A DNA stretch of 32,971 nt. Source: a virus. The stretch lies in the UHGV virus genome UHGV-0159523; one strand, 5' to 3'. The notes under the pieces are model-generated. The model made no database searches and had not been told where the DNA came from. It worked only from the letters and a program-made list of their open reading frames with translations. This document shows, in pieces, positions 1,528 through 23,244 of this stretch (its first letter is position 1; every line of letters starts with the position of its first letter). A program made the position numbers and the translations under genes.

Positions 1528-1531
<4 letters not shown>

Positions 1532-2904
1532 TGCACTGGCACCTTCAGAGGGATCACCGGCACAAAGCCGGGATGCGTAATGGCATTACGCCGGATAATG
1601 TCCGCGTCACGCGCCGCGTTATCAAACCAGGTAGCCGCCAGCACCAGCGCGGGTAAAACCTCATCCGGTGTGCGCTGAATGATCCGTGCAGACTGTTCAA
1701 GGCGCGTGTTGATATCCGCATTCAGATCTGCTTTCACCCGGCGCAGCGCCAGAAACAGCGCATCACTGGTTGTACGGGACAACTCCTTATCAATTGCCGT
1801 ATTCAGTGTGTCGCGAATGTCAGTCAGTTCTTCCCACGTCGGCAGGTCAACCGTGTTTTTCACCGCCGGTACATTGTTTAGTGCCGGATGCGTGACGGAA
1901 GGCCAGCCAGTGCTCTGCGCGGGTGTTGTTGCCTGCCCCACTGCGGAATTCTGCATCACCGCGGAAATTGTTGGCGCAGGCAATCGGGTGACGGCATACG
2001 CCGCTTCGCTGATTGCGGTCGTACGAAGGGTGCTGGCAACCACGTTACGCTGCTGCGTCGCCGTGGCGGTGGTTTTACTGTCCGTTTTCCAGACGCCGCG
2101 CGGTTGCAGATCGCTGCCGAGGCTGACACCGGAAAGCGTTTTGATCATGGTGACCAGGTCGCTGGCGTTACCATAAAGGCGTTTCCCGGTCCGCCACATT
2201 TTCTGCACCTGCTCAACGAAATTTTTGCCTGACGATGGCGGCGGCAGAAGTACCGAGATATCCCCCTGCAACAGCCTGGCGGCATCCGATACGGCAGAAT
2301 CCACCACTTTCATCGCATCAGAAACATACCCCAGCATCATGCTGGCATTACCGATAACGTCGTTCTGCACGAAATCCGCCACACCATCGATACTGAAACC
2401 GCTGAAGCTGTCACTGATGCAGTCATCCAGTGCAGAACAGGATGACATCAGCGTCTGCGCCGTCGCCGCACCTGATGTGGGGTAAGAGAGTTCTCCTGCT
2501 TCGACAAACTTCAGGTCAAAGCGGACAATACGCCCTTCACTTTTCGATGTGCTGACCCGAACTTCCCCGTCAACACAGACTTTCAGCTCACCATATGTCG
2601 GGTGGACAAGCGTGCCGGGACCGGGTTTATTCAGCGCTTCAATCAGGCGATCGCGCTGGTCAAAGCAGTCATCTCCCACCACATAAGCTGTGATGGACGG
2701 GCGGAAAGTGACTTTTCCCAGATCTTCGGTATAGGGCTTGTCGCGGTTCGGGTATTCATGTGTTTCCACACGGCGACCAGTTCCCGCACTTTCTTCTTCA
2801 ACCTTAAACGGCACGCTGCGAAATGACGCATCCTGAAGCCTGTCTTTCCACGTCATATAAGTCCCATATTTATTATCAGTAGTAATATTTACTGGTAATG
2901 CCAT
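1528..2904 (-). CDS. Mu gpN-like DNA circulation protein (tail module); alternative start at 2856
   Basis: N-terminal motif WKDRLQDASFRSVPFKVEEESAGTGRR typical of the DNA-circulation N-terminal family; the first 16 codons lie in the AT-rich island, so ATG at 2854-2856 (MTWKDRL) may be the true start. Confidence 0.7.
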
Positions 2905-2966
2905 AATTTGTAGTGGTAGCCATTACCATTTGTAACTATATAAATTATTAGCATTAAGGTGATAAC

Positions 2967-3413
2967 ATGAAGAAATTATTAAAATGGATTTTATATATTT
3001 TCATCGGGTTGGTGATTATTGGATATTTTGCAGGCAATAACGATAAAGGCTCTAATTCTTCATACTCATCCGATACGGAAGCTGCGGCACCGCAAAAAGA
3101 AATCTACAACACTACTGCTCGACAGCTGTTTAAAGAGTATGAAGAAAATGAAGTCGCTACCGATGAACAGTTAAAAGGTAAATTAATCGCCGTTAGAGGT
3201 ATCGTACAATCCATTGATAAGGACTTTACTGACTCTATAATTATTAAATTCAGAACTGAAAATGAATTCATGCCAGCAAGAATGGAGATGCAAGACTCTG
3301 AAAAATCAACAGCTGCTGCTCTTAAAAAAGGAGAACAAGTAACTGTTATTTGCGAAAAAATGTCCAGAATTGTCGGCTCCCCATCAGGCCGAAATTGCGT
3401 GTTCGCACAGTAA
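2967..3413 (+). CDS. Moron: N-terminally anchored or secreted small protein with OB-fold-like domain (tRNA_anti-like pattern), 148 aa
   Basis: AT-rich island on the opposite strand inside the tail operon; SD AAGGTGA 4 nt before ATG; N-terminal hydrophobic segment LLKWILYIFIGLVIIGYFA; C-terminal KGKLIAVRGIV...KKGEQVTVICE pattern. Confidence 0.55.
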   Translation: MKKLLKWILYIFIGLVIIGYFAGNNDKGSNSSYSSDTEAAAPQKEIYNTTARQLFKEYEENEVATDEQLKGKLIAVRGIVQSIDKDFTDSIIIKFRTENEFMPARMEMQDSEKSTAAALKKGEQVTVICEKMSRIVGSPSGRNCVFAQ

Positions 3414-3416
3414 GTT

Positions 3417-3447
3417 CAGGGGGGGGCGGCCCTCCCTGTTCGTCTTT
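3417..3447 (+). terminator. GC-rich hairpin between convergent moron and tape-measure genes (likely terminator)
   Basis: cagggggggg-cggc-cctccctg stem (about 9 bp, one G-U) followed by ttcgtcttt; lies between stop codons at 3413 and 3446. Confidence 0.3.
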
Positions 3448-5278
3448 ACCTAAATCTGGTGTACCCAACATCGTGATTAATATCAATGCCACTGGAACGT
3501 GTTTCCGTAACCCGCATACCTGGTGGCATATTCATAAATGAAACCTTGATCTCGCCATCAACTTTTGGCGCGATAGCTTTGTTAATCATAAAGGGATTCG
3601 AGCCTGTGGCATCGGAGGCGTTGTTTGCCTGAGCCGGATCCACCACCGGATAAGGAGTGTATCCCCGTGGCGGTATTCCCGTCCCATAAGCATCATAAGC
3701 ACCCGCGCCCCACTGCGCCGAGTTAATGGCATCGACCGTGTCACCGGAACTGTCGGTAAACCATTCAATAATCGGCTTCAGCTTATCCCACATATCCTGA
3801 AACCACTTAACAACCGGTCCCCAGTTATTGATCACCATCCCCAGCGGCGACCAGGCAAAAACCTTCTTCAGAAGTTCCCAACCTGCCTCAAAATAAGGAC
3901 CAATGGTTTCCCAGAGCTTCTTGAAATAAGGTCCGACAACATCCCAGTTAGTGATAATTAATCCCGCAGCCAGAGCAATCGCCGTCGCAATCATGCCAAT
4001 CGGCGTCATCGACATAATCCTGCTGACAATACTGATGGCACTGCCCACGCCCATCAATCCCAGTTTCAGAATCGCAAGACCGGCAGCAAGCCCGACGACG
4101 CCGCGAATAACCCGGGGATTTTCATCCGCAAACTTCGTGAATTTCTCCCCCAACTCCCCCAGCCATTGTGTGATATTTTTAGCGTCACCAGAAAATGCGC
4201 CGCCAATAGCCGCAAGGCCGTTAGTTGCGGTCCCTGTCATTGCCTCCCACAGGTTGGACAGCGTACCAAGCTGTGCCTGAACACGTTTATTCAGGCTGGC
4301 CTGTTTATTCATCTTCTGCTGGATCTGATCGTAGCCATCCTTTCCTTTATCGATTAGTGCATTGACCACCTGAAGGGTTTCGGCATCATCACCAAATATT
4401 GCCTTAAGTACACCTGTTCGCTTAACGTCGGTCAGTTTTCGCAGCTTTGCCAGTTGCCTGAACATGTTATCAAGACCGCCAAAACTTCCTTTGCCGTCAG
4501 TAAAATCGAGCTGTATCCCGAGTTTCTGGCGGGCCATAACTTTATTAACGTCCCTGATTTTCTTAACGCTTAATCCGGACTGGATAACTTTTCGCAGGGC
4601 ATTACCTGCCGACTCCCCGTTCATCCCCATCTGATCCATCATGACGCTGATGGGGGCAAGGCTCTGTGCAGCCTGAAGACCATCCTTGTTCACCATCTTC
4701 AGAACAGAACTGGTTTTAGTGAAGAAGGACAACATGTTGGTATCGTCAACGCCCAGATAAAACGCCTTCTGGATAGTGTCGAACAGCCCCATCATGTCTT
4801 CTGACGCCGTTCCGGTAGCATCCTGCATCTTTGCAGCAAACTCAGCAGCCGCTTCCGGTGTTTTTTTCAGTTGTACCGCAAGATAAGCTGTCGCTTTACC
4901 CACACCACCCAGAATGTTTTCTGCCGGGATCCCCTGACGCACCAGCATCTGCATCATGTTCTGGAAATCAGCCGTTGTACCAGGTAGCTGGTTACCCAGG
5001 CCAATAGCCAGTTTATTGATGTCCTGAAAGCTCTTTCCAACCTCGCCGTTCGCATCCATCATGGCGACTTTCAGCCCGGTGGCGGCGTTTTCCTGATCGG
5101 CATAAGATTTCAGGGAAAGCGTCAGACCCGCTGCCAGTCCGCCACCAAGCGCCAGCCCACCCTGTGACGCTTCTTCCGCCTGGCGTTTAAATCCCCGGAT
5201 TTTCTTTTGCATTTTCGACAGCGCGGGAGAAAGCCTGTCGACACCGGTGATCAACGCCTTAAGCTCAAATTCAGCCAT
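3446..5278 (-). CDS. Tail tape measure protein, 610 aa
   Basis: Long Ala/Gly/Leu-rich low-complexity protein with hydrophobic central segments, located directly downstream of tail assembly chaperone and frameshift ORFs. Confidence 0.8.
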   Translation of the reverse strand: MAEFELKALITGVDRLSPALSKMQKKIRGFKRQAEEASQGGLALGGGLAAGLTLSLKSYADQENAATGLKVAMMDANGEVGKSFQDINKLAIGLGNQLPGTTADFQNMMQMLVRQGIPAENILGGVGKATAYLAVQLKKTPEAAAEFAAKMQDATGTASEDMMGLFDTIQKAFYLGVDDTNMLSFFTKTSSVLKMVNKDGLQAAQSLAPISVMMDQMGMNGESAGNALRKVIQSGLSVKKIRDVNKVMARQKLGIQLDFTDGKGSFGGLDNMFRQLAKLRKLTDVKRTGVLKAIFGDDAETLQVVNALIDKGKDGYDQIQQKMNKQASLNKRVQAQLGTLSNLWEAMTGTATNGLAAIGGAFSGDAKNITQWLGELGEKFTKFADENPRVIRGVVGLAAGLAILKLGLMGVGSAISIVSRIMSMTPIGMIATAIALAAGLIITNWDVVGPYFKKLWETIGPYFEAGWELLKKVFAWSPLGMVINNWGPVVKWFQDMWDKLKPIIEWFTDSSGDTVDAINSAQWGAGAYDAYGTGIPPRGYTPYPVVDPAQANNASDATGSNPFMINKAIAPKVDGEIKVSFMNMPPGMRVTETRSSGIDINHDVGYTRFR

Positions 5279-13007: not shown

Positions 13008-14741
13008 TTAAAGCGAGCGGATCCCATAGGACTCAATGTGGTCAGACAGCGTGTCTTCTTTCTCGTACAGCATGGCTCTGCCAACCGCCATAATCAGCGC
13101 CACTGCACCATCGATTTTGTTTTCCGCCTGCTCTTTGACGGGCTTCACCACATCATCGTTACCCGGAATGGTTTTGCCGACCACGTTGCCGATACACCAG
13201 GTCATGATGGGATTGCCATCATGATGAAAGCGCCCCGATTCAATTGCCGCTTCCAGCTCTTTCATCGGGTCGGACATGTTGGTGTAGTTCTGAATGATAG
13301 TGATGGGGTTCAGGTCTTCATCAGCAAGGTCATGTGAGAGCCCGGTCGCCCCGAAGGGGTCGATGGGTGACTCGCTGACCGGGCTGATTTTGTTCGCCGC
13401 TTTGGCCTCTTCGAGGATGTAGCGATAATCCACCTCCGCACCATCGGTAACGGTCAGAACGCCCATTTCCACCCATTTCTGAAAGCGTTCGGCTGTCCGT
13501 CGATCTTCATTTTTCTCGACGCTGTACACCGTGTCATACGGTACCCAGAAACGCGGGGCCACACTGTAGTAATGCGTTTTACCGTCAATCTCGCGGGTAT
13601 AAAGTCGCGCCATGCTGTTCATATCCAGCTTACGCGCCAGGTCAAAGGCCAGAATGCACGGCTGCCCCTCGAACTGCTCAAGGGTCAGTGATTTATCCTC
13701 GCAGCTCTGCCAGCTCACCAGATTGAAATACGCCGAACGCGCCGACACCCAGATATTGAGGTGTTTTGTTTTAAAGACGTTTGCCAGACGGGCGTTATTT
13801 TTCGCACGCTGCTGCTGACTTAACAAAAATTCGCGATAAACCGACACGCCAATATTTGGATTGGCTTTTTCCAGCACCTGCGGGGCGGTCCAGTCGTCAC
13901 CTTCATCAACGGTATAGATGATCCCGAACAGTTCATCGTTAGGCACCGAGCCGTTGAGCATCTCGATGACTTCCCGCCGTTTGTCGTAGCACGGCCCCTC
14001 AATGTTGTACCCGGCGGTAGTGATAGCCCACATCAGTGGCTGACGTCGCGCCCCCATCCCGGTAAGCATCGTGGTGTAAAGCGCATCTGTGGCGTGCTCG
14101 TGATATTCATCCACCACCGCACAGTGGGGTGATGAACCATCACCGGGGTTACCGATCAGCGGTTCAAAACGCGCACCATCCTCCGGACGGTTCATGTTTG
14201 AGGCGTTAACCTCAATCCCGAACGCTTCCGTCAGCATGGGTGTGCGTTTACACATCAGTCTTGCCGGACGAAAGACTTCCCATGCCTGTTTCTCTGTCGT
14301 GGCACCGGAATACACTTCCGCGCCGAACTCGTTATCACAGGCAAAACAATACAGGGCGACACCGGCAGAGATTGCCGATTTGCCGTTCTTACGGGGGATT
14401 TCGGTATACACCTCACGGAAGCGGCGCAGCCGGGAGCCTTTATTGACCCAGCCAAACGCGCAGCAGATCACAAAGAGCTGCCACGGCTCCAGCGTGATGG
14501 GCATCCTCTTAAATGCCCACTCACCCTTGGTGTGCGGCAACAGCTGAATAAATTTGGCGGCCCGTTCAGCCAGGTCCTTGTCGAAGCGGTAACGAAACGA
14601 CTTACTTTTTTCCGCCATCAGGTCATCAAGATGGCGCTGGCAGGCCTGAATCACAAACTGGCAGGCCACAATCTTTCCGCGCACGACATCACGGGCATAC
14701 TGATTGGCAGCATTTACGTTGGGGTAAGATTTCCGGCTCAT
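13008..14741 (-). CDS. Terminase large subunit, 577 aa
   Basis: Walker-A-like PRKNGKS, size, and position after TerS with 4-nt overlap. Confidence 0.9.
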
Positions 14742-15241
14742 GATTCGATGATTTTCAGAAACGGGTTAGTGGCTTTCTTCTTCCCCGCCAGGCCAATCAG
14801 ACGCTGGCGGCTGCTGGGGTCGAGTCCGAGCATTGCCCCCGTACTGCTCATCTCGGACTCCTGTTCTTTTTTGGCGGTCAGCTCCGGATTTTTGACCATA
14901 CCGCCCATTGCACCGGTGATGGTGTTGCCCTGTCTGGCAATATTTTTCACGGCACGTCGCCAGAACTCGTAGGCCACGCACCACCGCTCAAGCACCGCGA
15001 GGTCAGTCACGCACAGCAGGCCCTGACCGCAGAGTTCTTTGGTTGTCAGCTGCCACATGATCGTGGCGAGAGGGAGATTTTCTTCTGCGAACCACTCCGG
15101 TGGCTCAACACCTTTGATGGGCGTAAAAACAGGTTCATCTTTGTTCAGGGCTCGCTTGCCGGGGTTTCCGGCCAGCGCCTTGCGCGCCGTTGGCTTGGGG
15201 CGACGCCCGGAACGCCCCGCCGTTCCAGCCATATGCGGCAC
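14738..15241 (-). CDS. Terminase small subunit (P27 family), 167 aa
   Basis: GNPGKRALN motif characteristic of P27-family small terminase; adjacent HNH endonuclease. Confidence 0.7.
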
Positions 15242-15357
15242 TCCTGGTTAAATTTCATTTTTCGCGGGTATAAAAAAACGATGGGGCGGGCAGTCCGGAA
15301 GACGTCAGGTCACAGGGATTTGACCCGCCCCTCCCCTCTGGCAGTGGGAACTGGTTC

Positions 15358-15708
15358 TTACTTCAGCCGTTCACGGGCCGTCTTCGCCTTATGACACGGC
15401 CAGCACAGGCTCTGCAGATTACTGTCGGCATCAGAGCCGCCATGCGCTTTAGGGATGATGTGATCAACGGTTTTCGCTTCACGCACCACACCGGCACGCA
15501 GACATAACTGACATAAACCTTTGTCACGTTTCAGCGCACGCGCGCGGATAACGTCCCACTTCGAACCGTAGCCGCGCTGATGACGGGATTGTCCAGGTTT
15601 GTATTGCTTCCAGCCTTCGCTTTTGTGGCTTTCGCAATAACCTGACGGGTCTGTGGTTATAGAGCGGCAGCCGCGAACACGGCAGGCCTTTGGGATTCGT
15701 GGTGGCAT
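15358..15708 (-). CDS. HNH endonuclease (terminase-associated), 116 aa
   Basis: Cys pairs and DHIIPKAHGG...N...LCWPCH motif; location immediately upstream of TerS as in HK97-like cos phages. Confidence 0.8.
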   Translation of the reverse strand: MPPRIPKACRVRGCRSITTDPSGYCESHKSEGWKQYKPGQSRHQRGYGSKWDVIRARALKRDKGLCQLCLRAGVVREAKTVDHIIPKAHGGSDADSNLQSLCWPCHKAKTARERLK

Positions 15709-15919
15709 GGGTGTTCCAAAATAAATAAACGCTAGCGAATTCTAGTAGCTTGAATTGAGTGTGATGGCCAGTACTGAACTTGAATCCGATTCGGTGTCAG
15801 CTTGGTTTTAGGCGATTACGCACAATTTGTTTTCCCTCATCAGACCAGGTTTTTAACCCATCATTATATATATACCCATCACCAAACTACGGCTTCCAGT
15901 AGGTTACTGTGTTTAGCAT

Positions 15920-15947
15920 GAGTATTTTGTGGTATAAGAAAATACTC
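15920..15947 (+). promoter_or_regulatory. Inverted repeat (9-bp arms gagtatttt / aaaatactc) bracketing an extended -10 (TGgTATAAG): candidate promoter/operator of the moron gene
   Basis: Perfect 9-bp arms separated by gtggtataag; TATAAG at 15933-15938 preceded by TGg; about 30 nt upstream of SD GGGAGA and ATG 15968. Confidence 0.4.
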
Positions 15948-15967
15948 AATTCTTGGGAGAAGAAAAC

Positions 15968-16249
15968 ATGCCAAAAATTCAATTTGATGCAAAAAGTGGT
16001 GAAATGAAGGTTGAGGAAGAAATTTCCAAGATCACCATTGATGATAAAGGCTTAGTTAAAGCTGAAGAGTCTGTAGTTAATGGAAATACCGTTAAGTACT
16101 TTGAGTATGAAAATGGTAGCCATATCACTATTACCCAAAAAAACGGATCCTCTGAGATTTCATCTCATAATATCCAGACAACAATAAGCGCTGACCCTGA
16201 AAAGCCTGGTTTTGTGACTATGACTTACAGAATGGGGTCAGGTAGCTAA
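15968..16249 (+). CDS. Moron: small hydrophilic protein of unknown function, 93 aa
   Basis: AT-rich island on the opposite strand between lysis and packaging genes; SD GGGAGA 7 nt upstream of ATG; own promoter-like and terminator-like elements. Confidence 0.5.
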   Translation: MPKIQFDAKSGEMKVEEEISKITIDDKGLVKAEESVVNGNTVKYFEYENGSHITITQKNGSSEISSHNIQTTISADPEKPGFVTMTYRMGSGS

Positions 16250-16278
16250 CTTTCATTTCAACAAGAGCGGAAAATCAA

Positions 16279-16312
16279 AGCGGCTCATATTGAGCTGCTT
16301 TTCATTATTTTC
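16279..16312 (+). terminator. Rho-independent terminator-like hairpin after moron gene
   Basis: agcggctca-tat-tgagctgct stem (one G-U) followed by tttcattattttct. Confidence 0.4.
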
Positions 16313-16519
16313 TGCATCCACACTTTCGCAATGGCCGCGATCATGCCCTTGAGACCATGTGTCAGGGGTATCTCGTGAATCCCTCATAACTAACCGGAAG
16401 CTGACTGGCTATCAGCCTAGAGCACCGGTGCGCTTCTTCCCGTTAACCCTCACCAGTGCGCTCTCAGCTTTTTACCTGAAACTGGCTACCAGCAACTTTG
16501 AGTATTCGGGGCAGCGTCA

Positions 16520-16825
16520 TTACTGCTGCATTGACACTACTTGCTGCGGTCTTTCCGCTTTACAGCTTAATGGCCAGCTCCTCTCTGCCTCAATTTTACG
16601 AATATCAGCTTTATCACTATTACAGGCAGCCAGAGCCGACAACAGACTCACATTCAAATCCAAGCTTCCACCGTAGGTCAATGGATCAGGAATAACCGGT
16701 TGCGGGGTTTCAGCGGTCAGGTTCGCCGGTAGTGGTATCACCGGAACTGGCACGTAAACTGTCCGCGTACCGGCGCAACCGGTCAGCAGCGGCAGCAGGC
16801 ACAGGGCGTAGAGCACAATCATCAT
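16520..16825 (-). CDS. Rz1-like o-spanin (lipoprotein), overlapped architecture
   Basis: ORF in an alternate frame inside and extending beyond Rz; MM start at 16825/16822, lipobox LLTGC, Pro-rich mature region VPVPVIPLP...PQPVIPDP. Confidence 0.45.
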   Translation of the reverse strand: MMIVLYALCLLPLLTGCAGTRTVYVPVPVIPLPANLTAETPQPVIPDPLTYGGSLDLNVSLLSALAACNSDKADIRKIEAERSWPLSCKAERPQQVVSMQQ

Positions 16826-17102
16826 CCGCAACAGCCACTTTGATATCTTCCTGGGTTCTCTGTGACTCCAGTGCGATCTGCTGTTTTGCATGTTGATTCG
16901 CCTCCTGAATGATGTTCGTTATTGCCATAGTACGCAGAACATTCGCGGTGATAGCCTCAGTAGAATCAGCTCGCTGTTCCGCAGCGTCAGCACGCTTCTG
17001 CTCCTCCAGAAACTTTCCGTGGTAGTGATTCGCTGACCAGACAAGACCACCAGCAATACAAGCAATAAACGCTAAAATGAGCGCCCAATAACTCATCTTC
17101 AT
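16710..17102 (-). CDS. Rz-like i-spanin, 130 aa
   Basis: N-terminal TM (YWALILAFIACIAGGLVW), charged coiled-coil periplasmic domain; start overlaps endolysin stop. Confidence 0.65.
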   Translation of the reverse strand: MKMSYWALILAFIACIAGGLVWSANHYHGKFLEEQKRADAAEQRADSTEAITANVLRTMAITNIIQEANQHAKQQIALESQRTQEDIKVAVADDDCALRPVPAAAADRLRRYADSLRASSGDTTTGEPDR

Positions 17103-17713
17103 ACCAGCAGCGCCGCCCGCGCCTTGTTGTATCGAACCTTACGATCCTCAATACCGTTCAGACCGCCGTTAATGATGCGCGTAACACGATTAATATCGGC
17201 ACCGTAGACCATGCAACCTTTAGAGGTGTAGAACCATGCAGCTGAGCGCGCGGCCTGTAGCTCCTGTTCCAGTTGTTCAGGTGAAGTCACCAGATCTAAC
17301 TTCAGCGCCGCGCCACAGATGCGATAATTATGGAGGCCAGTGATTTGAATTAATCCTCTACCACGATATTTCCAGCCATCACCTGGTGCTTTGTTACCCA
17401 GTCGGTTGCTATACACCAGATTGGCAATAGCATCCTGACGAGCTGCATGTCCGGATGTTCTGCCAAGGGCATCAGCCTGCTGCTGTGTGATCCTCTTTCC
17501 GAACGTCGCCACAAGCGCAGATGGTGTGTAGTTAAAATTTTCAACTACGGCGCTAAACCCCATCGACTCATGGCCTACCTGAGCGATAAACATTGCCTGA
17601 TCCGCTGGTGCTGTAATGCCGAATTCCTTCATCGCCGCATCAATGTGCGGAAACCAGCGCGCAGCCAGCCCGGCGCTAATACCAGCCGCCTTTTGAAATA
17701 ATTGTTGGTTCAT
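17099..17713 (-). CDS. Endolysin, glycoside hydrolase family 19 (chitinase-like), 204 aa
   Basis: GH19 motifs FIAQVGHES...GNKAPGDGWKYRGRGLIQITG...NY; located between holin and spanin genes. Confidence 0.85.
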   Translation of the reverse strand: MNQQLFQKAAGISAGLAARWFPHIDAAMKEFGITAPADQAMFIAQVGHESMGFSAVVENFNYTPSALVATFGKRITQQQADALGRTSGHAARQDAIANLVYSNRLGNKAPGDGWKYRGRGLIQITGLHNYRICGAALKLDLVTSPEQLEQELQAARSAAWFYTSKGCMVYGADINRVTRIINGGLNGIEDRKVRYNKARAALLV

Positions 17714-17994
17714 TAGTGCCTCAGATGATCAACCAGACGTGCAACGTTGCCTCTGACAGCCACCAGCACGGAAAGAAAAATAGTGTTCGCCACGATAATG
17801 GGCCATGAGGAATGGGGATAAATCCCACAGAGATAGGCCAACGGAACAGCACTGTATGTAACAGTAATCAGCCAGGCTAAACGTGAAACCCACGGACGAT
17901 GCCGCGAATCACCACGACGATAAAACATCAGAGTAATAACAACACAAGCACATAACAGCGCATTAATAGTTGCTGTCGGGTCATTTAGCTCCAC
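17713..17994 (-). CDS. Small membrane protein in lysis cassette (second holin/antiholin candidate), 93 aa
   Basis: Two to three hydrophobic helices; between holin and endolysin. Confidence 0.45.
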   Translation of the reverse strand: MELNDPTATINALLCACVVITLMFYRRGDSRHRPWVSRLAWLITVTYSAVPLAYLCGIYPHSSWPIIVANTIFLSVLVAVRGNVARLVDHLRH

Positions 17995-18367
17995 CTGAAC
18001 CTCCCCGGCGCGTTATGAGCGCCACCAGCGAGCCGATATCCTGATTATTCAGGAACGTCAGGATTTTAACGGCTAAAGCAGAGACGATTACGGCACCAAT
18101 AGCATCCAGAGGTTTATCACTGTATCCGGTCAAGTTTGCCAGCTTGGAGCCAACCAATCCAGAGCAAAGGATCCCAGCAATATATGACACGATAAAATAT
18201 GCCAGTCGGCGCGATGCACTCAGATCTGCTGCTGTTGCTATATAGAATACAGCCCCTGCAAATGCGCCAAAAACAACGCCGTAATCAGTTCCGGTCAGCA
18301 GTCCATAAATACTAGCGCCCGTTAGGGCTCCACCAGCTAACCCTGTGCCGGAAATCGGATCGGACAT
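17981..18367 (-). CDS. Holin-like membrane protein, 128 aa from ATG 18367
   Basis: Strong SD AGAGGTG 4 nt upstream of ATG at 18365-18367; Gly/Ala-rich TM helices; first gene of lysis cassette. The ORF track's upstream start at 18433 lacks an SD. Confidence 0.55.
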   Translation of the reverse strand: MSDPISGTGLAGGALTGASIYGLLTGTDYGVVFGAFAGAVFYIATAADLSASRRLAYFIVSYIAGILCSGLVGSKLANLTGYSDKPLDAIGAVIVSALAVKILTFLNNQDIGSLVALITRRGGSGGAK

Positions 18368-18415
18368 TAGCCACCTCTTATTGCAGTGAGTCCTCTCAGA
18401 AATAGAAATGAGAGG

Positions 18416-18442
18416 AATAAAAAAGGCCACCATTTGGCAGCC
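18416..18442 (-). terminator. Rho-independent terminator at end of AT-rich cassette (before holin)
   Basis: Minus strand ggctgcc-aaat-ggtggcc hairpin (with G-U pairs) followed by TTTTTTATT. Confidence 0.4.
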
Positions 18443-18475
18443 ATAGAATTGATGTAATTATAACTAATTCATTAA

Positions 18476-19282
18476 CTATTTCTTAATGATGCTATTTAAC
18501 ATTTCTAATGCAAAAAGCAACATGGAGCTAATAAAATACAATATAACCGCACTGGCAATCGCTCCAATTATAGCCTGAACACTCCAGTGAAAGTAATTTT
18601 TACCATTAATAACAAACTTAACACTAGGAAACAAAAAGTCGATAAGCTTAATTATTAATGGAATAGCAAAGCTCCATAAGTTCGAAAACAAAATAAAGAT
18701 ACAAATAAATGATAAAGCAAATGCACCATCGATTGATAGTTTTGGCGCCAGTTTTGAGGCTGTCCATAAGCTAAGCAAAAAGCCAACTGTCACACCTGAA
18801 ATCTGGATACTTAACATAGTCCAAGCTGTTCTAAAAAATCTAAATTTATTTTTGCACTTGTTAAGTAAATCCTGAATCGTAATCCATAACGAGTCAACCC
18901 ACTCATTATCTTCCGATGCTACAATCATTGTGCTGCTATTTGAATTCCTCTCATCAATTCGTAGCTCCATCCAAGATCCATTCATCCTGTTAGACTGTCG
19001 ACTTTGATAAGTTTCAATAGTAAAAATTATTTGATCAATCCTAGTGGCCTGTCTAAAGTATTTCACAAGCTCACCGATAGAATCAACTTTATACCCCTTA
19101 CCATCGAACAAAATAAAAAAAACACATTGAGCACAAACTTCCCTACTTTCCTTTTGAGCTTGCTCATTCATTTTAACGCAGCGTTCGACAATTGCCGTGC
19201 TTAAGCTAATCAAGCTATCTTCATTTATAGAAACACCTGAAATATTCTTGCTTCTGTAAAAATATGACACTTTCGATTCCAC
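18476..19282 (-). CDS. Moron: membrane protein with about 155-aa N-terminal soluble domain and three C-terminal TM helices, 268 aa (GTG start)
   Basis: Long ORF in strongly AT-rich DNA; hydrophobic segments near residues 160-185, 195-227, 240-265; no in-frame upstream ATG before a stop, so GTG at 19282. Confidence 0.55.
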   Translation of the reverse strand: MESKVSYFYRSKNISGVSINEDSLISLSTAIVERCVKMNEQAQKESREVCAQCVFFILFDGKGYKVDSIGELVKYFRQATRIDQIIFTIETYQSRQSNRMNGSWMELRIDERNSNSSTMIVASEDNEWVDSLWITIQDLLNKCKNKFRFFRTAWTMLSIQISGVTVGFLLSLWTASKLAPKLSIDGAFALSFICIFILFSNLWSFAIPLIIKLIDFLFPSVKFVINGKNYFHWSVQAIIGAIASAVILYFISSMLLFALEMLNSIIKK

Positions 19283-19447
19283 TCCGCACCAGTCTCGATT
19301 TGGCGCAGGTTAACATAACCACTTCATTGGTAGAAGAAAAGAACTCTTCTTGTCAGAAAGCTACTGTGATATCCCTAAACCTGCAGATGATACAGAACAA
19401 AATTTAAGCATCAATTGTAGGCGATTTTAAATTCACTTTACAGTTTA

Positions 19448-19465
19448 GGCTGCCAATTGGCAGCC
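19448..19465. repeat. Perfect 18-bp palindrome ggctgccaattggcagcc between the two cassette genes
   Basis: Exact reverse-complement symmetry read directly; 15 bp downstream of the 89-aa gene stop; its right half recurs in the cassette terminator at 18425-18442. Confidence 0.6.
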
Positions 19466-19479
19466 GATTGAAGCAGAAA

Positions 19480-19749
19480 TCAATGAGTGCTCATCGATGA
19501 ATTTTTTTCAGCGCCAATCTCACTCAAAAAAGCAAAACCTTTTGACGTTATCTCATTAGCAATCAATCCACCTTCGGCAGATTTGCTTCGTATAACATCG
19601 ATAAAACCTATATCAGCAAGATCTGAAATAGCAAAATTAACCTCTTTTGCTGAGAGATGAGGTAATGATGTAGCCTGAATTCTAGAATCCTTTGGCTGCA
19701 ATTCATTCACTCGACGTAGTATTTCAAGATGGATAGAGGTCAGTTTCAT
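19480..19749 (-). CDS. Moron: small protein with winged-helix-like C-terminus, 89 aa (candidate regulator)
   Basis: Perfect SD AGGAGA 5 nt before ATG; own extended -10 promoter; pattern DLADIGFIDVIRSKSAEGGLIANEITSKGFAFL resembles wHTH wings. Confidence 0.5.
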   Translation of the reverse strand: MKLTSIHLEILRRVNELQPKDSRIQATSLPHLSAKEVNFAISDLADIGFIDVIRSKSAEGGLIANEITSKGFAFLSEIGAEKNSSMSTH

Positions 19750-19785
19750 AATGTTCTCCTGTCTTTAATGTTGTTTTACAGAAAA

Positions 19786-19795
19786 CATTATAACA
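19786..19795 (-). promoter_or_regulatory. Extended -10 promoter element (TGtTATAAT) for the AT-rich cassette
   Basis: Minus-strand TGTTATAATG about 35 nt upstream of the 89-aa gene ATG, just downstream of the tR'-like terminator. Confidence 0.4.
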
Positions 19796-19830
19796 CATTG
19801 ATTTTGATGTAGATTGAATAGAAAAAAACC

Positions 19831-19856
19831 ATAAAAAAACCTCGCAATAGCGAGGT
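19831..19856 (-). terminator. tR'-like rho-independent terminator in the late leader downstream of Q
   Basis: Minus strand acctcgc-tatt-gcgaggt perfect 7-bp stem followed by TTTTTTAT and a second T-run. Confidence 0.5.
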
Positions 19857-19963
19857 CGTAAAAATTGTTCAACGATAGATACACAAGCCCCATCGTTGAG
19901 AAAATCTTATCCATATTTTTTGAGAAACACAAGTATTATGTCGTTATCTTCGGCGAAAATCGC

Positions 19964-20716
19964 TTATCTCGTCACCCTTCTCAATTGTGCTTCAGCGTAA
20001 GCTTCCTCCTGCCAGCACTTTGTAACCAGTTTATCAATGACATCTGCATATCCTTTGTACCACTGATAATCCGTCAGGTCTGGTACCAGCTTCTGGACAT
20101 GAAGCCGCGCCAGTGTGGTTGGTAAACGGCTAAACCGGTTTCCATTGCAACGCCCACAAATCTTATAAACAGGCGTGCCATGAAGCCGGGTCCTTTTTTC
20201 ATCCAGGACAATACCTTTACCCTTACACCCTCTGCACGCGGTGCTGACTTCTCCCTTACCATGGCAATGCTGACATAGTTCCTTCACCCACTCTTCCTTG
20301 ATAACAGATTCCCCGCTTCTGGAGTGTTTCACCACTTCGCGCAATACATTATGAAATCCAGTACCAGCACAATGCTCACAGCGAGCCTTACTTGCCGCAG
20401 ACCTGGAATAATCAGCAAAGGCAAAATTCACAAGGTAAGGGATGATCTGTAACCGGGTTTCTTCACTCAATTTGTTCAATGTCGGGTTATCCAGTGCCAT
20501 CGCGTAATTGAACAGACCTTCAATCGCAAACTGAGGATCCTGAACACCAACTTTTGCCAGGAATAAGGCAAACCCAAGCGGTGCTTTCGACTGCACCATC
20601 CCCTGCGCAGCCATCACATCCGTAATCGTTAAACCACCTGAGCCTGTCGCCGGTGCGTCATCGCTCAATTTTGGAGATTTTGGGGAGTAATATTTTGGTA
20701 AGGCTTCAAGGTTCAT
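19964..20716 (-). CDS. Late-gene antiterminator Q-like protein, 250 aa from ATG 20716
   Basis: Cys-rich zinc-binding motifs (CEHCAGTG, CQHCHGKG, CRGCKGKG, CGRCNG); position immediately upstream of late leader/terminator and lysis genes; SD GGAGA before ATG 20714-20716. Confidence 0.7.
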   Translation of the reverse strand: MNLEALPKYYSPKSPKLSDDAPATGSGGLTITDVMAAQGMVQSKAPLGFALFLAKVGVQDPQFAIEGLFNYAMALDNPTLNKLSEETRLQIIPYLVNFAFADYSRSAASKARCEHCAGTGFHNVLREVVKHSRSGESVIKEEWVKELCQHCHGKGEVSTACRGCKGKGIVLDEKRTRLHGTPVYKICGRCNGNRFSRLPTTLARLHVQKLVPDLTDYQWYKGYADVIDKLVTKCWQEEAYAEAQLRRVTR

Positions 20717-20729
20717 GCTCGTTCTCCAC

Positions 20730-21701
20730 TTACGCCAGCACGCCAATTGCCTGCGCACGATCGATAAAACGAAATATCAGCTCCAGCTGGGAGCCATACT
20801 TCTCTTCAAATGCCACGGTATCCGCATGCAGCTCGTCGTGATGCTTTCTGCACAAAGGCAACACAAAGAGGTCATGCGCTTTTGTACCCATTCCACCCTG
20901 ACCGTGACCTATCAGGTGGTGGGGATCATCAGCAGGCTTTCCACAACATGCACACGGCTGTGTCTTAACCCAGCGGCGACGTTTTGGGCGTAACATAAAA
21001 GACTCCGGCGACTCCGGATCCACTTTCAGCGCCAGCACCTTTTTCGCCTTATCATGGATGATGCTGGTGGCAGGAATCGAAGGCACAAGGTCACTTTCCC
21101 GGGTGACAGACGGCACAACAGGCTTCGGTAATCTCAGTGCCTTACGGGCTGCACTTTCCGGTAAGGCATCCGCCAGGTCATTACGAATCAGCCACCAGCA
21201 CAGTTCCGGCATTGTCACAACGTGACTGTCATCAAAACCGAGATCCCGACGCACAACAGACAACACCCAGCGGGCACAGTTATCCGTTGCCATTGATTCC
21301 AGCCGTTCCGTGAACTGATCGCGCAGCTGGTTATCGCAGTGCCAGCACAGACGGATCGCGCCCGGCGCGTGTCGCATTGTGGTCATGTTCTCGCTGTGCC
21401 AGTCGGAATGAGGCCACTGACAGCCCTTTTCACGAAGTAACCAGCTTTCAAGACATTCCACGCCACCAGCACGACGGATCACTGCCTCATTGCAGAACAC
21501 GGCCCGAACGGCAGGATCATCCGCCAGCGGTTGTGATGCCGCGGGAACGGCACCACTGGCGAAAGATGAATAACGTTCCGGCTCAGGCTCCAGCAGGACA
21601 CGCCCCTGCATAAACAGGGGCATCAGCTCTGAACCGGGTCTGAACAATACGATCCCCATACGCGGGGCTATTTCAGTGGTCAGTAGTGCTCTCACGGTCA
21701 C
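20730..21701 (-). CDS. DUF968-family phage protein, 323 aa
   Basis: C-terminal Cys/His-rich segment CACCGKPADDPHHLIGHGQGG...CRKHHDELH; common lambdoid early-region gene. Confidence 0.55.
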   Translation of the reverse strand: MTVRALLTTEIAPRMGIVLFRPGSELMPLFMQGRVLLEPEPERYSSFASGAVPAASQPLADDPAVRAVFCNEAVIRRAGGVECLESWLLREKGCQWPHSDWHSENMTTMRHAPGAIRLCWHCDNQLRDQFTERLESMATDNCARWVLSVVRRDLGFDDSHVVTMPELCWWLIRNDLADALPESAARKALRLPKPVVPSVTRESDLVPSIPATSIIHDKAKKVLALKVDPESPESFMLRPKRRRWVKTQPCACCGKPADDPHHLIGHGQGGMGTKAHDLFVLPLCRKHHDELHADTVAFEEKYGSQLELIFRFIDRAQAIGVLA

Positions 21702-21702
21702 C

Positions 21703-22512
21703 TCAATGAACGGTATCGAGCAGCTTTAACAGCTCAGGGAATCGGGATTCGAAGAAATGCGGCTGCGTCTCACGCGGATTTGCGGGACTGGTGATGTTCT
21801 TGCCGAACATGCAGCCTTTCGCCGTCAGCGACCAGAATTTTTTGATGTTGTTAATCGCGGTACGGCTGTATCGTTCGCGCTGCTCGACGATCCCCAGCTT
21901 CGCCATCTGGTGATATGCCTGATTAGCCGTAAGGCGGATACCATACTGTTTCAGCAGTGCACTCAGCGACAGTGTCGGGCGGCTTGAGCCATCAGGCGCG
22001 TCAGCAGGAGCATCAATGGCATAGCGCGGTGCCAGATTCGGTAAGCCAACAGCCTCCTGGAGTTTCTGACAGGCCCCAAGCACTGAAGAGTTAGACAGGT
22101 TTAACTCCCTGCGCATAAAGTCCAGCAGAATCACTCCAGCCTGCATCTTGTCAGCAGCCTGCCCGGATAATTTTTCCGGTACGCTGGTTACCATATCGAA
22201 AGTACGGATCACCTTCAGATGGAATGACGGGCTGATCCACATTGCATAGGCATACACCAGTTCCTTGCAGACATAAGTTCCCCGTTCATTTCCCCCATGA
22301 ATCACACTCACCGGGTCAACACCCAAATTCTGGGTGTTGGTCAATTCATGAACAAGTTCAACACTTTGTTGGCTGGAAAGAAACTTTCCTGGCTCCTTGG
22401 TTCTGGCATTTGCACCAGATGCTACTGCTGCGCGATGCAGATCGTTCAGGCTGTAACGCCCATAAGCATCACGACGAACTTCAATACCATCAATGACCAT
22501 CAGATTATTCAT
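21703..22512 (-). CDS. KilA-N domain protein (antirepressor-like), 269 aa from ATG 22512
   Basis: N-terminal MNNLMVIDGIEVRRDAYGRYSLNDLHRAA motif typical of KilA-N; SD AAGGAG 9 nt upstream of ATG 22512. Confidence 0.7.
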   Translation of the reverse strand: MNNLMVIDGIEVRRDAYGRYSLNDLHRAAVASGANARTKEPGKFLSSQQSVELVHELTNTQNLGVDPVSVIHGGNERGTYVCKELVYAYAMWISPSFHLKVIRTFDMVTSVPEKLSGQAADKMQAGVILLDFMRRELNLSNSSVLGACQKLQEAVGLPNLAPRYAIDAPADAPDGSSRPTLSLSALLKQYGIRLTANQAYHQMAKLGIVEQRERYSRTAINNIKKFWSLTAKGCMFGKNITSPANPRETQPHFFESRFPELLKLLDTVH

Positions 22513-22531
22513 ACTTCGTTTCTCCTTTTGC

Positions 22532-22921
22532 TCAGGCGTCTGCACCCGCCGTTTTCTCGTACTTACTGATAGTGATCTCGACCTTCCCTTCCGGGATAAC
22601 CGGTCCCCACTCCACCAGCATTCTTTTCACCTGGCTGTCGTCTTCCCACACACCCGCGTGGGTCAGAACGTCAAACAGCGCCTTGTTATAGTTGTCCAGA
22701 TCGCGGATCCTGTTATCCGGAGGAAACAACACAATCTCTACTGAAGCAGGTGCCGACGTTGGTTTCGGCAGACGACGTAACTGCTCAACTATTGCTGCGC
22801 ACGCCGCGCTCTGGAATTTTCGCCCCGCCGCGCTTATCAGGCTCTTACCAGCAAACGCCCCTTTGTTGGGGTGTCGCCAGTACGTGTTCACGCTGGGCGG
22901 AAAAGGCAGGATCAGCTTCAT
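22532..22921 (-). CDS. rusA: Holliday junction resolvase RusA, 129 aa
   Basis: LPFPPSVNTYWRH...RDLDNYNKALFDVLTHAGVWEDDSQV matches RusA conserved core; ATGA overlap with upstream gene. Confidence 0.8.
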   Translation of the reverse strand: MKLILPFPPSVNTYWRHPNKGAFAGKSLISAAGRKFQSAACAAIVEQLRRLPKPTSAPASVEIVLFPPDNRIRDLDNYNKALFDVLTHAGVWEDDSQVKRMLVEWGPVIPEGKVEITISKYEKTAGADA

Positions 22922-23244
22922 ACTTTCAGGCCCCTCTCATGTAACCAGTGGGTTGCACGCAGCCTTGCGTTTTCCTCACCGGCAAGCAGTGAGCGGATAA
23001 TCCCGACCGCCTCGCTGTCGTCGTCCTTCACCGCGGTATGAAGCGTGATGCCCCGGGCCACGCCACGCTTTATCGTGATGACGCCTTTTTTCTCCAGTGC
23101 GCGAAGATGCTCCACCGCTGCATTCACTGAACGGTATCCCAGCATGGTTGCCACCTCCTGATTGGTTGGCGGGAAGCCACGTTCTTTCTGATAAGAAATC
23201 AGCATATCCAGCACCTGCTGCTGACACTGAGTTAACGTCGTCAT
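22918..23244 (-). CDS. LexA N-terminal DNA-binding domain paralog lacking the S24 peptidase domain, 108 aa
   Basis: MTTLTQCQQQVLDMLISYQKERGFPPTNQEVATMLGYRSVNAAVEHLRALEKKGVI aligns colinearly with the E. coli LexA N-terminus as I recall it; no Ser/Lys dyad region; TAATG coupling to upstream gene. Confidence 0.65.
   Translation of the reverse strand: MTTLTQCQQQVLDMLISYQKERGFPPTNQEVATMLGYRSVNAAVEHLRALEKKGVITIKRGVARGITLHTAVKDDDSEAVGIIRSLLAGEENARLRATHWLHERGLKV

What the first reader, a model, noticed from the sequence alone, without database searches (positions are those of the whole stretch)
2894..3447. Opposite-strand AT-rich insertion inside the tail operon encoding a membrane-anchored OB-fold-like protein
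Seen in sequence: between the Mu gpN-like gene and the tape-measure gene lies an AT-rich island with a plus-strand gene (SD AAGGTGA). It encodes an N-terminal signal/anchor and a domain with the KGK...V.G.V...KKG..V pattern I associate with secreted OB-fold (tRNA_anti-like) proteins, followed by a G8-containing GC hairpin. Inference: a lysogenic-conversion or surface-exclusion moron whose envelope localisation suits blocking DNA entry or receptor access.
Basis: partly seen in the sequence, partly recalled or inferred. Interest (0 to 1): 0.45.

Follow-up and report, generated by a model that had tools for sequence, protein, structure and literature searches.

The report
Prophage moron encoding Sie2009-like periplasmic protein

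Summary
Window 2861-3446 is a 586-bp AT-rich cassette (GC 0.37; window 0.51). It lies between the Mu-N-like DNA-circulation/baseplate-hub gene (real start 2856) and the tape-measure gene (stop 3446), and carries one plus-strand gene (2967-3413, 148 aa).

It matches PHROG 8545. I showed that this family contains the experimentally characterised Sie2009 of Lactococcus phage Tuc2009 (hhalign probability 97.8%, same architecture).

An invariant Cys pair, lipoprotein-anchored homologues and the positive-inside rule place the OB domain in the periplasm.

SfV, SfI and SfII have an empty slot, so the gene is not needed for virions. Other E. coli prophages carry different AT-rich genes there.

In other prophage lineages, homologues sit directly downstream of the repressor (like sie2009) or next to Gabija.

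Best explanation: a prophage-expressed block to genome entry (confidence about 0.55). The function is inferred, not shown. This is a new member of a known kind, of moderate interest.

The parts
2861..3446 (.). AT-rich cassette (moron) that fills the variable slot between the N-like gene and the tape-measure gene
   Evidence: Homology to other SfV-like prophages stops at 2859/2860 and resumes at 3447-3459. GC is 0.374 against 0.506 for the window. The slot is empty (about 72 bp with a terminator hairpin) in L002 and in phages SfV, SfI and SfII.
2899..2907 (+). Candidate extended -10 promoter TGcCATAAT with no good -35; the predicted start site is a few bases downstream
   Evidence: It aligns with TGCTATAAAT in the 71-73% divergent alleles of the same slot, while the surrounding upstream sequence is poorly conserved. 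The consensus -35/-10 scan found nothing upstream of the gene. This is a prediction only.
2956..2962 (+). Shine-Dalgarno sequence AAGGTGA, 4 nt before the ATG
   Evidence: Read directly from the sequence. AGGTGAT(A/T)ACATG is conserved in the divergent alleles.
2967..3413 (+). Gene for the 148-aa membrane-anchored OB-fold protein (PF12869 / PHROG 8545, Sie2009-like)
   Evidence: ORF. Pfam 2.9e-19. PHROG 8545 1.5e-49. RefSeq WP_000734912.1, 'OB-fold protein'. Under purifying selection.
2976..3035 (+). Signal-anchor / transmembrane helix (residues about 4-23), preceded by the basic stretch MKK..K
   Evidence: Kyte-Doolittle mean 2.16 for residues 4-22; N-terminus charge +3. AF2 helix at residues 2-22. 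There is no lipobox cysteine and no AXA cleavage site (read from the sequence).
3036..3098 (+). Disordered Ser/Thr/Asn-rich linker (residues 24-44), variable in length among homologues
   Evidence: pLDDT below 50 for residues 27-35. Length and sequence are variable in alignment A1.
3099..3410 (+). Periplasmic OB-fold domain (residues 45-148) with the motifs YxxNEVAxD and QSIDKD and an invariant Cys129/Cys144 pair
3417..3438 (+). GC-rich hairpin followed by TTCGTCTTT: a one-directional terminator for the moron gene, 8 nt from the tape-measure stop codon
   Evidence: Terminator scan hit on the + strand only. -19.5 kcal/mol on +, against -13.3 with no U-tract on -. The GGGAGGG/CCCTCCC stem is conserved in all alleles. 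The G8 form is a minority variant.
1528..2856 (-). Left flank: Mu-N-like DNA-circulation / baseplate-hub gene (442 aa)
   Evidence: Pfam DNA_circ_N 5.5e-33. PHROG 184 baseplate hub 2.3e-144. Start position as annotated in RefSeq.
3446..5278 (-). Right flank: tail tape-measure gene (610 aa)
   Evidence: Pfam PhageMin_Tail 6.2e-27. PHROG tape-measure families.

Best explanation
The cassette is a self-contained moron carried by an SfV-like temperate phage that has lambdoid regulation, an HK97-type head and a Mu-like contractile tail.

Proposed expression: in the lysogen the gene is transcribed from its own weak extended -10 promoter, against the direction of the silent late operon, and stops at its own hairpin.

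Proposed product: a bitopic inner-membrane protein. It has a short basic N-terminus in the cytoplasm and one transmembrane helix. A flexible linker of about 20 residues follows, ending in a disulfide-stabilised OB-fold domain in the periplasm.

Proposed function: by homology with Sie2009 of Lactococcus phage Tuc2009, the periplasmic domain interferes with a step after adsorption. It would either bind a distal tail, tape-measure or ejection component of an incoming phage, or mask the inner-membrane/periplasmic factor that triggers genome translocation. Foreign phage DNA would then fail to enter the cytoplasm and the lysogen would survive.

Shown here:
- the cassette boundaries and its dispensability for the phage;
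- the protein architecture and fold;
- family membership;
- purifying selection;
- the genomic contexts of homologues.

Inferred:
- promoter use and expression in lysogens;
- periplasmic location and the disulfide;
- the exclusion function and its target.
For: 1. Homology.
- PHROG 8545 'superinfection exclusion Sie-like', 1.5e-49 over the full length.
- Tuc2009 orf2 (Sie2009) scores 1.7e-79 against the same PHROG and 3.5e-11 against PF12869.
- The family profile against Sie2009 gives hhalign probability 97.8%, E 1.3e-12, 26% identity over 130 columns. The order TM, Ser/Thr linker, OB domain is the same.
- Sie2009 is a membrane-associated protein that prevents DNA injection (PMC7693887; PMC10883804).

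2. Topology.
- Positive-inside N-terminus and a single TM helix.
- Two Cys residues invariant in 38 proteobacterial homologues.
- Some homologues replace the TM helix with a lipobox (P0067 ISGC, P0077 LTAC), and others add a cytoplasmic zinc ribbon before the TM helix.
- The OB domain is acidic, pI 5.2, which argues against nucleic-acid binding.

3. Moron status.
- The slot is empty in the sequenced phages SfV, SfI and SfII and in most of about 1,090 E. coli genomes with these flanks. The gene is present in 79 of 5,426 genomes.
- The slot also holds other AT-rich cargo. These are a 176-aa N-terminally anchored protein, a 225-aa lipoprotein and a bPH_1 protein.

4. Context of homologues.
- 17-30 bp downstream of 186-type CI repressors, on the same strand, in at least 15 loci.
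- Downstream of, or overlapping, S24 cI-like repressors (L062, L087, L108).
- Third gene of the immunity-repressor operon in Burkholderia phage Carl1.
- Next to Gabija GajA/GajB or an AriA-like ATPase.

5. Selection. pN/pS is about 0.13-0.16 in the OB domain among the same-slot alleles, and up to 0.26 against more distant homologues.

6. Regulatory signals. The extended -10 and the terminator stem are conserved between alleles whose synonymous sites are saturated.
Against: - There is no experimental data for any Gram-negative member. Literature searches found none.
- The link to Sie2009 is remote (26% identity), and an OB fold can bind many kinds of ligand. The Sie2009 mechanism is itself unknown.
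- PADLOC and NCBIfam have no model that matches.
- The promoter is only a weak consensus match. AT-rich DNA in E. coli is often silenced by H-NS (background knowledge).
- Roughly one fifth of carriers are damaged. They have a 142-bp deletion removing the promoter, Shine-Dalgarno sequence and TM helix. A C-terminal frameshift allele also exists, so selection in E. coli is not uniformly strong.
- In this window the gene is in the tail module, not the lysogeny module where sie2009 sits.
- I could not measure the Cys-Cys distance in the model.
Confidence: 0.55

Rival explanations
1. It is a lysogenic-conversion envelope factor unrelated to phage exclusion. A periplasmic OB-fold protein could alter envelope physiology, for example tolerance to antimicrobial peptides, stress or serum. 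That would resemble the periplasmic BOF-family OB proteins YdeI/YgiW or lambda Bor.
For: The extracytoplasmic OB domain is acidic and its ligand is unknown. PF12869 is very large, with 7,794 clusters at 50% identity at E<=1e-3, and is mostly chromosomal 'putative lipoproteins' without a known role. The closest solved structure, 3F1Z, is an uncharacterised Klebsiella lipoprotein. The roles of YdeI/YgiW and Bor are from my own background knowledge.
Against: The specific subfamily is found overwhelmingly in prophages. It lies in repressor operons or beside defence systems. It also shares a PHROG with a proven exclusion protein.
Confidence: 0.15
2. It is a membrane-anchored abortive-infection or sensor protein whose OB domain faces the cytoplasm and binds phage nucleic acid. 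That is the model proposed for lactococcal AbiP, staphylococcal PdpSau and, originally, C. difficile TcdC.
For: AbiP and PdpSau are described as an N-terminal TM helix plus an OB-like domain that act after DNA entry (PMC10127798). TcdC matches PF12869 by HHpred and binds G-quadruplex DNA in vitro (PMC3575817). The fold neighbours are nucleic-acid-binding OB domains.
Against: A basic N-terminus followed by a single TM helix predicts an outward-facing C-terminus. Other points against are the invariant Cys pair and the lipoprotein-anchored homologues, the acidic domain and the absence of any PADLOC Abi hit.
Confidence: 0.1
3. It is a passenger gene with no current function in E. coli: horizontally acquired DNA that persists by hitch-hiking in a recombination-prone slot and is slowly decaying.
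For: A 142-bp deletion allele lacks the promoter, Shine-Dalgarno sequence and TM helix in about 14-20 of 79 carrier genomes, and there is a frameshift allele. The gene is in only 1.5% of complete E. coli genomes. The promoter match is weak.
Against: There is strong long-term purifying selection with saturated synonymous sites. The Shine-Dalgarno sequence, -10 element and terminator are conserved across divergent alleles. The same gene sits in the same slot in prophages whose tail genes are only 67-81% identical, including a Scandinavium prophage.
Confidence: 0.12
4. It serves the phage's own cycle. It could be a tail-assembly or ejection accessory, or a factor acting with the neighbouring tape-measure protein. 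In that case its position next to the tape-measure gene would be functional, not accidental.
For: Homologues lie beside tape-measure or baseplate genes in three unrelated myovirus backgrounds. These are the SfV-like slot, L058 (between the chaperone and tape-measure genes) and Klebsiella phage ST405-OXA48phi1.2.
Against: It is on the opposite strand to the late operon, with its own terminator. It is absent from the viable phages SfV, SfI and SfII, whose flanks are 93-94% identical. Most homologues are in lysogeny modules, not tail modules. The tape-measure C-terminus is essentially the same with or without the cassette.
Confidence: 0.05

Closest known systems
Sie2009 (orf2) of Lactococcus phage Tuc2009 and its lactococcal P335-phage relatives
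   Same: Same PHROG (8545) and the same Pfam family (PF12869). Same architecture: basic N-terminus, one TM helix, Ser/Thr-rich linker, OB domain. Both are small and prophage-encoded. Many homologues of the window protein sit just downstream of the repressor, as sie2009 does.
   Different: Only about 26% identity. The host is Gram-positive, so there is no periplasm and Sie2009 has no cysteines. The proteobacterial subfamily has an invariant Cys pair and the NEVATDE / QSIDKD motifs. In this window the gene is in the tail module on the opposite strand, not between the repressor and integrase genes. Exclusion has been shown for Sie2009 but not here.
PDB 3F1Z, 'putative nucleic acid-binding lipoprotein' of Klebsiella pneumoniae (structural genomics)
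   Different: 16-17% identity. It is lipid-anchored rather than TM-anchored. Neither phmmer nor the family profile detects it by sequence. Its function is unknown.
HK97 gp15, P22 SieA, T4 Imm and Streptococcus TP-J34 Ltp (injection-blocking exclusion proteins)
   Same: The proposed mode of action is the same: a prophage-expressed membrane or lipoprotein that stops genome entry after adsorption. Escape from several of them maps to tape-measure or ejection proteins (PMC10883804). HK97 gp15 is also a moron inside a structural operon (title of the reference cited in PMC11364771).
   Different: No sequence or fold relationship was found. SieA has three TM helices, and Ltp is a lipoprotein with a different fold. 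This is analogy, not membership.
C. difficile TcdC, and the Abi proteins AbiP / PdpSau
   Same: An N-terminal membrane anchor followed by an OB-like domain. TcdC hits PF12869 by HHpred, and its homologues lie between cI and int in Lactobacillus and Leuconostoc phages (PMC3575817).
   Different: TcdC has an added coiled-coil dimerisation region and is discussed as a regulator of toxin genes. AbiP and PdpSau act after DNA entry and are reported to bind nucleic acid (PMC10127798). I could not compare their sequences directly here.
E. coli CcmE (haem chaperone)
   Different: The sequence is unrelated and it has a housekeeping role in cytochrome c maturation.

Membership tests
Pfam PF12869 tRNA_anti-like (OB-fold, mostly extracytoplasmic 'putative lipoproteins') | Score above the curated gathering threshold of the family HMM | tested here: met
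   69.5 bits against a cut-off of 23.5, E 2.9e-19, residues 2-130 on profile positions 5-131 of 146.
Pfam PF12869 tRNA_anti-like (OB-fold, mostly extracytoplasmic 'putative lipoproteins') | OB-fold beta-barrel tertiary structure | tested here: met
   AF2 model with pLDDT 90-98 over residues 45-148. Top fold hits are 3F1Z, then the anticodon-binding domains of AspRS/LysRS/AsnRS, RPA and Stn1. The model is predicted, not solved.
Sie2009-like superinfection-exclusion proteins (PHROG 8545) | Sequence homology to the characterised member | tested here: met
   PHROG 8545 1.5e-49. Sie2009 itself scores 1.7e-79 against that PHROG. hhalign probability 97.8%, E 1.3e-12.
Sie2009-like superinfection-exclusion proteins (PHROG 8545) | Small protein with a hydrophobic N-terminal membrane anchor | tested here: met
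   148 aa; Kyte-Doolittle mean 2.16 over residues 4-22 after MKKLLK; AF2 helix at residues 2-22. This is a prediction only, with no fractionation data.
Sie2009-like superinfection-exclusion proteins (PHROG 8545) | Encoded in the lysogeny module next to the repressor and expressed from the prophage | tested here: not met
   In this window the gene lies in the tail module, and the repressor is at 25915-26676. The feature is met by many homologues: 186-type CI or S24 cI directly upstream, and the phage Carl1 repressor operon. Expression itself cannot be tested here.
Sie2009-like superinfection-exclusion proteins (PHROG 8545) | Blocks DNA injection of heterologous phages without affecting adsorption | not testable with these tools
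   This needs plating-efficiency, adsorption and injection assays. No published test of a proteobacterial member was found.
Moron (Hendrix-type independent transcription unit inserted in a phage operon) | Lies between two genes that are adjacent in related phages | tested here: met
   SfV, SfI, SfII and most E. coli relatives have only about 60-72 bp between the two tail genes.
Moron (Hendrix-type independent transcription unit inserted in a phage operon) | Nucleotide composition different from the surrounding genome | tested here: met
   GC 0.374 against 0.506; lowest 4% of equal-length windows.
Moron (Hendrix-type independent transcription unit inserted in a phage operon) | Own promoter and terminator | tested here: inconclusive
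   A terminator is predicted on the + strand and conserved. The only promoter candidate is an extended -10 conserved among alleles. The standard -35/-10 scan found none upstream.
Bacterial lipoprotein | Lipobox L-[AS]-[GA]-C at the end of the signal peptide | tested here: not met
   The first 128 residues contain no cysteine, and the anchor ends ...IIGYFAGNND. Some homologues do have a lipobox (P0067, P0077). The RefSeq name 'OB-fold putative lipoprotein', used for relatives, therefore does not apply to this protein.

The most novel reading that the evidence does not exclude
PF12869 / PHROG 8545 could be a single ancient family of extracytoplasmic OB-fold injection blockers shared by phages of Gram-positive and Gram-negative bacteria. 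This E. coli protein would be its first proteobacterial representative.

In that reading, its repeated placement beside tape-measure and baseplate genes reflects a direct, allele-specific interaction of the periplasmic OB domain with the tape-measure or ejection conduit of incoming phages. Those placements are the SfV-like slot, L058 and Klebsiella phage ST405-OXA48phi1.2. The slot would then be a specificity cassette that is exchanged by recombination.
Probability: 0.15. Interest if true: 0.6.

Novelty: new member of a known kind. Interest (0 to 1): 0.35.

Why it matters
If the protein does block genome entry, it would extend the Sie2009 type of exclusion from lactic-acid bacteria to Enterobacterales. 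It would also provide a small, soluble, well-folded periplasmic domain as a handle on how tailed phages cross the periplasm and inner membrane, which is poorly understood.

It also identifies the junction between the tape-measure and N-like genes of SfV-like prophages as a cargo hotspot. This prophage type is present in about 20% of complete E. coli genomes. The hotspot carries at least four alternative AT-rich genes, three of them envelope proteins, and could be mined for further exclusion factors.

In practice, such genes affect phage-therapy host range and Shigella/E. coli phage typing. The work here is only a computational assignment; none of this has been tested.

Tried and rejected
- megablast of the island against the phage collection: no match. 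tblastn found only two distant phage homologues.
- phmmer and a family-profile search against PDB sequences: nothing meaningful, only chance hits to spike S2 and a NEAT domain. The relation to 3F1Z is visible only by fold.
- NCBIfam and PADLOC: no family.
- The standard sigma-70 scan found no promoter upstream. Its one strong hit (3214-3241) is inside the ORF and I disregard it.
- The afdb50 fold library was not available.
- Literature searches found no study of a proteobacterial member. The terms were tRNA_anti-like + superinfection exclusion, PF12869, OB-fold + prophage, TcdC + superinfection exclusion, and SfV + moron.
- Tai and Tab tail-assembly-interference systems were considered and dropped. 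Tai proteins were shown not to act at entry and sit mainly upstream of the packaging module, and no TM was mentioned.
- I first assumed that NZ_CP161809.1 was the source genome, because it is 100% identical over 2400-3900. Its early region differs from the window, so its annotation cannot be transferred beyond the tail module.
- The G8 run as a phase-variation tract was rejected. It is outside the coding region and is a minority A-to-G variant of a perfect stem.
- The idea that cassette presence is linked to a special tape-measure C-terminus found no support.
Full report
**1. What is there**

The window carries most of a temperate prophage.
- Mu-like contractile-tail and baseplate genes, an HK97-type head, and a terminase.
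- A lysis cassette and a lambda-type Q antiterminator (19964-20758).
- An S24 cI-like repressor (25915-26676) and a tyrosine integrase (31553-32716).

By DNA similarity the tail module belongs to the SfV/SfI/SfII group of Shigella/E. coli phages. A closely related prophage sits at thrW next to proA.

Two minus-strand tail genes flank a 586-bp stretch that is much more AT-rich than its surroundings. They are the Mu-N-like DNA-circulation/baseplate-hub gene and the tape-measure gene. GC is 0.374 against 0.506, which only 4% of equal-sized windows reach.

The stretch holds one plus-strand ORF, 2967-3413 (148 aa). A Shine-Dalgarno sequence AAGGTGA lies 4 nt upstream. A 9-bp GC hairpin with a T-rich tail (3417-3438) follows.

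**2. Boundaries and dispensability**

blastn against five related E. coli prophages shows shared sequence stopping at window 2859/2860 and resuming at 3447-3459.
- The N-like gene therefore starts at 2856 (442 aa, as annotated in RefSeq). The longer 458-aa ORF is an over-extension into the island.
- The cassette fills the whole intergenic space, from just upstream of that start codon to the tape-measure stop codon.

Among 5,426 complete E. coli genomes, 1,093 carry these flanks but only 79 carry the island.

Most relatives, including the sequenced phages SfV, SfI and SfII, have only about 60-72 bp with a terminator-like hairpin there. The gene is therefore not needed to build or run the phage.

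The same slot holds other AT-rich cargo in other prophages:
- a 176-aa protein with an N-terminal hydrophobic anchor;
- a 225-aa lipoprotein with an LLGGC lipobox;
- a 125-aa bPH_1 protein.

Those genes run with the tail operon. Among the cargo types examined, only the OB gene runs against it.

**3. The gene is real and constrained**

Alleles 69-73% identical in protein occupy the same slot in three kinds of prophage:
- other E. coli prophages (L007/L041, flanks 90-97% identical);
- a more distant SfV-like group (L038-40, flanks 67-72% identical);
- a Scandinavium prophage (L096).

Against these, non-synonymous differences in the OB domain are 0.11-0.13 per site while synonymous sites are saturated at 0.81-0.87.

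The Shine-Dalgarno/start region, a TG-n-(C/T)ATAA(A/T) extended -10 element (window 2899-2907) and the GGGAGGG/CCCTCCC terminator stem are conserved across these alleles. The rest of the upstream region is not.

The hairpin is strong on the plus strand (-19.5 kcal/mol with a U-rich tail). It is weaker, with no U-tract, on the minus strand. So it should stop the moron transcript without stopping late transcription.

The phage's Q antiterminator would in any case make late RNA polymerase terminator-resistant. This last point comes from established lambdoid biology and is an inference here.

**4. The protein**

- Residues 1-6 (MKKLLK) are basic.
- Residues 4-23 form a strongly hydrophobic helix (Kyte-Doolittle mean 2.16).
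- Residues 24-44 are Ser/Asn/Thr-rich and are predicted disordered.
- Residues 45-148 form a confident OB barrel (AF2 mean pLDDT 88.6, 90-98 in the domain).

Pfam places it in PF12869 tRNA_anti-like, well above threshold.

Four observations put the OB domain outside the cytoplasm:
- the positive-inside N-terminus with a single TM helix;
- two cysteines (129 and 144) invariant in all 38 aligned homologues;
- homologues in which the helix is replaced by a lipoprotein signal (P0067, P0077);
- homologues that add a zinc ribbon on the cytoplasmic side of the helix.

The domain is acidic (pI 5.2), so the 'nucleic-acid-binding' label is unlikely to describe its role. E. coli CcmE shows the same anchor-plus-periplasmic-OB design.

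**5. Link to a characterised protein**

The whole protein matches PHROG 8545, 'superinfection exclusion Sie-like', at 1.5e-49.

To see what that name rests on, I fetched Lactococcus phage Tuc2009. Its orf2, between the integrase and repressor genes, is Sie2009.
- Sie2009 scores 1.7e-79 against PHROG 8545.
- It also passes PF12869, at 3.5e-11.
- A profile of the enterobacterial family aligns to it with 97.8% probability (E 1.3e-12, 26% identity over 130 columns).
- The order of TM helix, Ser/Thr linker and OB domain is the same.

Sie2009 is described as a small membrane-associated protein that prevents DNA injection by heterologous phages. Its mechanism is unknown. It is thought either to contact distal tail components or to mask the injection trigger (PMC7693887; PMC10883804). 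This is remote homology, so it is a strong lead rather than proof of function.

**6. Where homologues sit**

Scans of IMG/VR and of one genome per GTDB species returned 80 and 43 loci. They come from Enterobacterales, Burkholderiales, Xanthomonadales, Rhodocyclales and others. After annotating neighbours and classifying by tblastn, several recurrent contexts emerged:
- (a) the SfV-like tail slot;
- (b) 17-30 bp downstream of a 186-type CI repressor on the same strand, with CII divergent, in at least 15 Pantoea/Serratia-type loci;
- (c) downstream of, or overlapping, an S24 cI-like repressor (L062, L087, L108);
- (d) P2-like Burkholderia/Ralstonia prophages. There it ends the lysogenic operon and converges on tail gene D. 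In the isolated phage Carl1 the order is immunity repressor, hypothetical gene, OB homologue, terminator;
- (e) beside Gabija GajA/GajB (PADLOC 2.7e-263 and 1.1e-231) or an AriA-like ATPase;
- (f) on the opposite strand inside other tail or baseplate clusters (L058; Klebsiella phage ST405-OXA48phi1.2).

Contexts b-d are the positions of sie2009 and of lambda rexAB. They argue for expression in the lysogen. Context e argues for a role in defence.

**7. Best explanation and rivals**

I conclude that this is a prophage-expressed, inner-membrane-anchored periplasmic protein that blocks genome entry of superinfecting phages (confidence about 0.55).

The alternatives are:
- an envelope conversion factor unrelated to phages (0.15);
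- an AbiP/PdpSau/TcdC-like cytoplasm-facing Abi or regulator (0.10, disfavoured by topology);
- a decaying passenger (0.12). About 14-20 of 79 carriers have a 142-bp deletion (window 2899-3040) that removes the -10 element, the Shine-Dalgarno sequence and the anchor. A frameshift allele also exists;
- a role in the phage's own tail function (0.05, disfavoured by dispensability and orientation).

No PADLOC or NCBIfam model covers the protein. I found no paper that tests a proteobacterial member.

**8. Novelty and verdict**

Pfam and PHROGs already classify the protein, and RefSeq calls it 'OB-fold protein'. Morons in tail operons and membrane-bound exclusion proteins are both well known. It is therefore a new member of a known kind.

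Three things are modestly new:
- the explicit bridge from the characterised Gram-positive Sie2009 to a periplasmic, disulfide-bearing proteobacterial subfamily;
- the comparative evidence that this subfamily lives in immunity operons and defence neighbourhoods;
- recognition of the junction between the tape-measure and N-like genes of SfV-like prophages as a cargo hotspot.

Interest: 0.35.

Noticed in passing
window 26692-27391 (+): Two small AT-rich ORFs lie directly downstream of the S24 cI-like repressor (25915-26676) on the same strand. One is 115 aa with two CxxC pairs (GC 0.36). The other is 135 aa, with a coiled coil and a C-terminal TM helix (IAWTVATGLAILGLAKFMF). Neither has a Pfam hit. 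This is the classic immunity-operon position for exclusion or Abi genes such as rexAB or sie.
   Followed up: partly
window 18476-19282 (-): A 268-aa ORF lies between the Q antiterminator (19964-20758) and the holin (17981-18433). It is very AT-rich (GC 0.34), has several C-terminal hydrophobic helices and has no Pfam hit. It is another likely moron, at the Q-downstream position.
   Followed up: partly
slot equivalent to window 2861-3446 in L003, L004/L006 and L005 (E. coli prophages): The junction between the tape-measure and N-like genes is a cargo hotspot. Alternative AT-rich genes there are a 176-aa N-terminally anchored protein (also in phage SKA5), a 225-aa lipoprotein (LLGGC) and a 125-aa bPH_1 protein. 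All are on the tail-operon strand, each is followed by a terminator, and none is known to PADLOC.
   Followed up: partly
window 2899-3040, as deleted in L033-L037 and in E. coli hits H106-H114: A recurrent 142-bp deletion between TAA microhomologies removes the -10 element, Shine-Dalgarno sequence, start codon and membrane anchor of the OB gene. RefSeq still annotates the remnant as 'OB-fold protein'. A separate allele (P0002) is frameshifted after residue 131.
   Followed up: yes
L081 5483-9081 (IMG/VR prophage); also L071, L074 and L076: A complete Gabija pair (GajA, GajB) or an AriA-like ATPase lies convergent to, and about 50 bp from, the OB-fold homologue. This suggests a prophage defence hotspot.
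   Followed up: partly
window 14000-32971: No complete E. coli genome matches the early and regulatory half of this prophage over more than 82% of its length, although the tail region is 100% identical to strains YF-1 and T16R. The prophage is a mosaic, so annotation cannot be copied from those records.
   Followed up: partly
L015 906-2795 and 26851-29222 (E. coli YF-1 prophage, outside or different from the window): The YF-1 relative carries a DUF262 (GmrSD-like) gene beyond the tail fibres. It also has an opposite-strand pair, 'nucleoid-associated protein' plus a hypothetical gene, between its methyltransferase and Q genes. Both may be defence cargo, and both are absent from the window.
   Followed up: no
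literature: PMC3575817 compared: C. difficile TcdC was reported to hit PF12869 and to have homologues between cI and int in Lactobacillus and Leuconostoc phages. That is the same family and the same genomic position as Sie2009. TcdC may therefore descend from a phage Sie-like protein. My one search combining the two terms returned only two listed papers, neither evidently about such a link.
   Followed up: no
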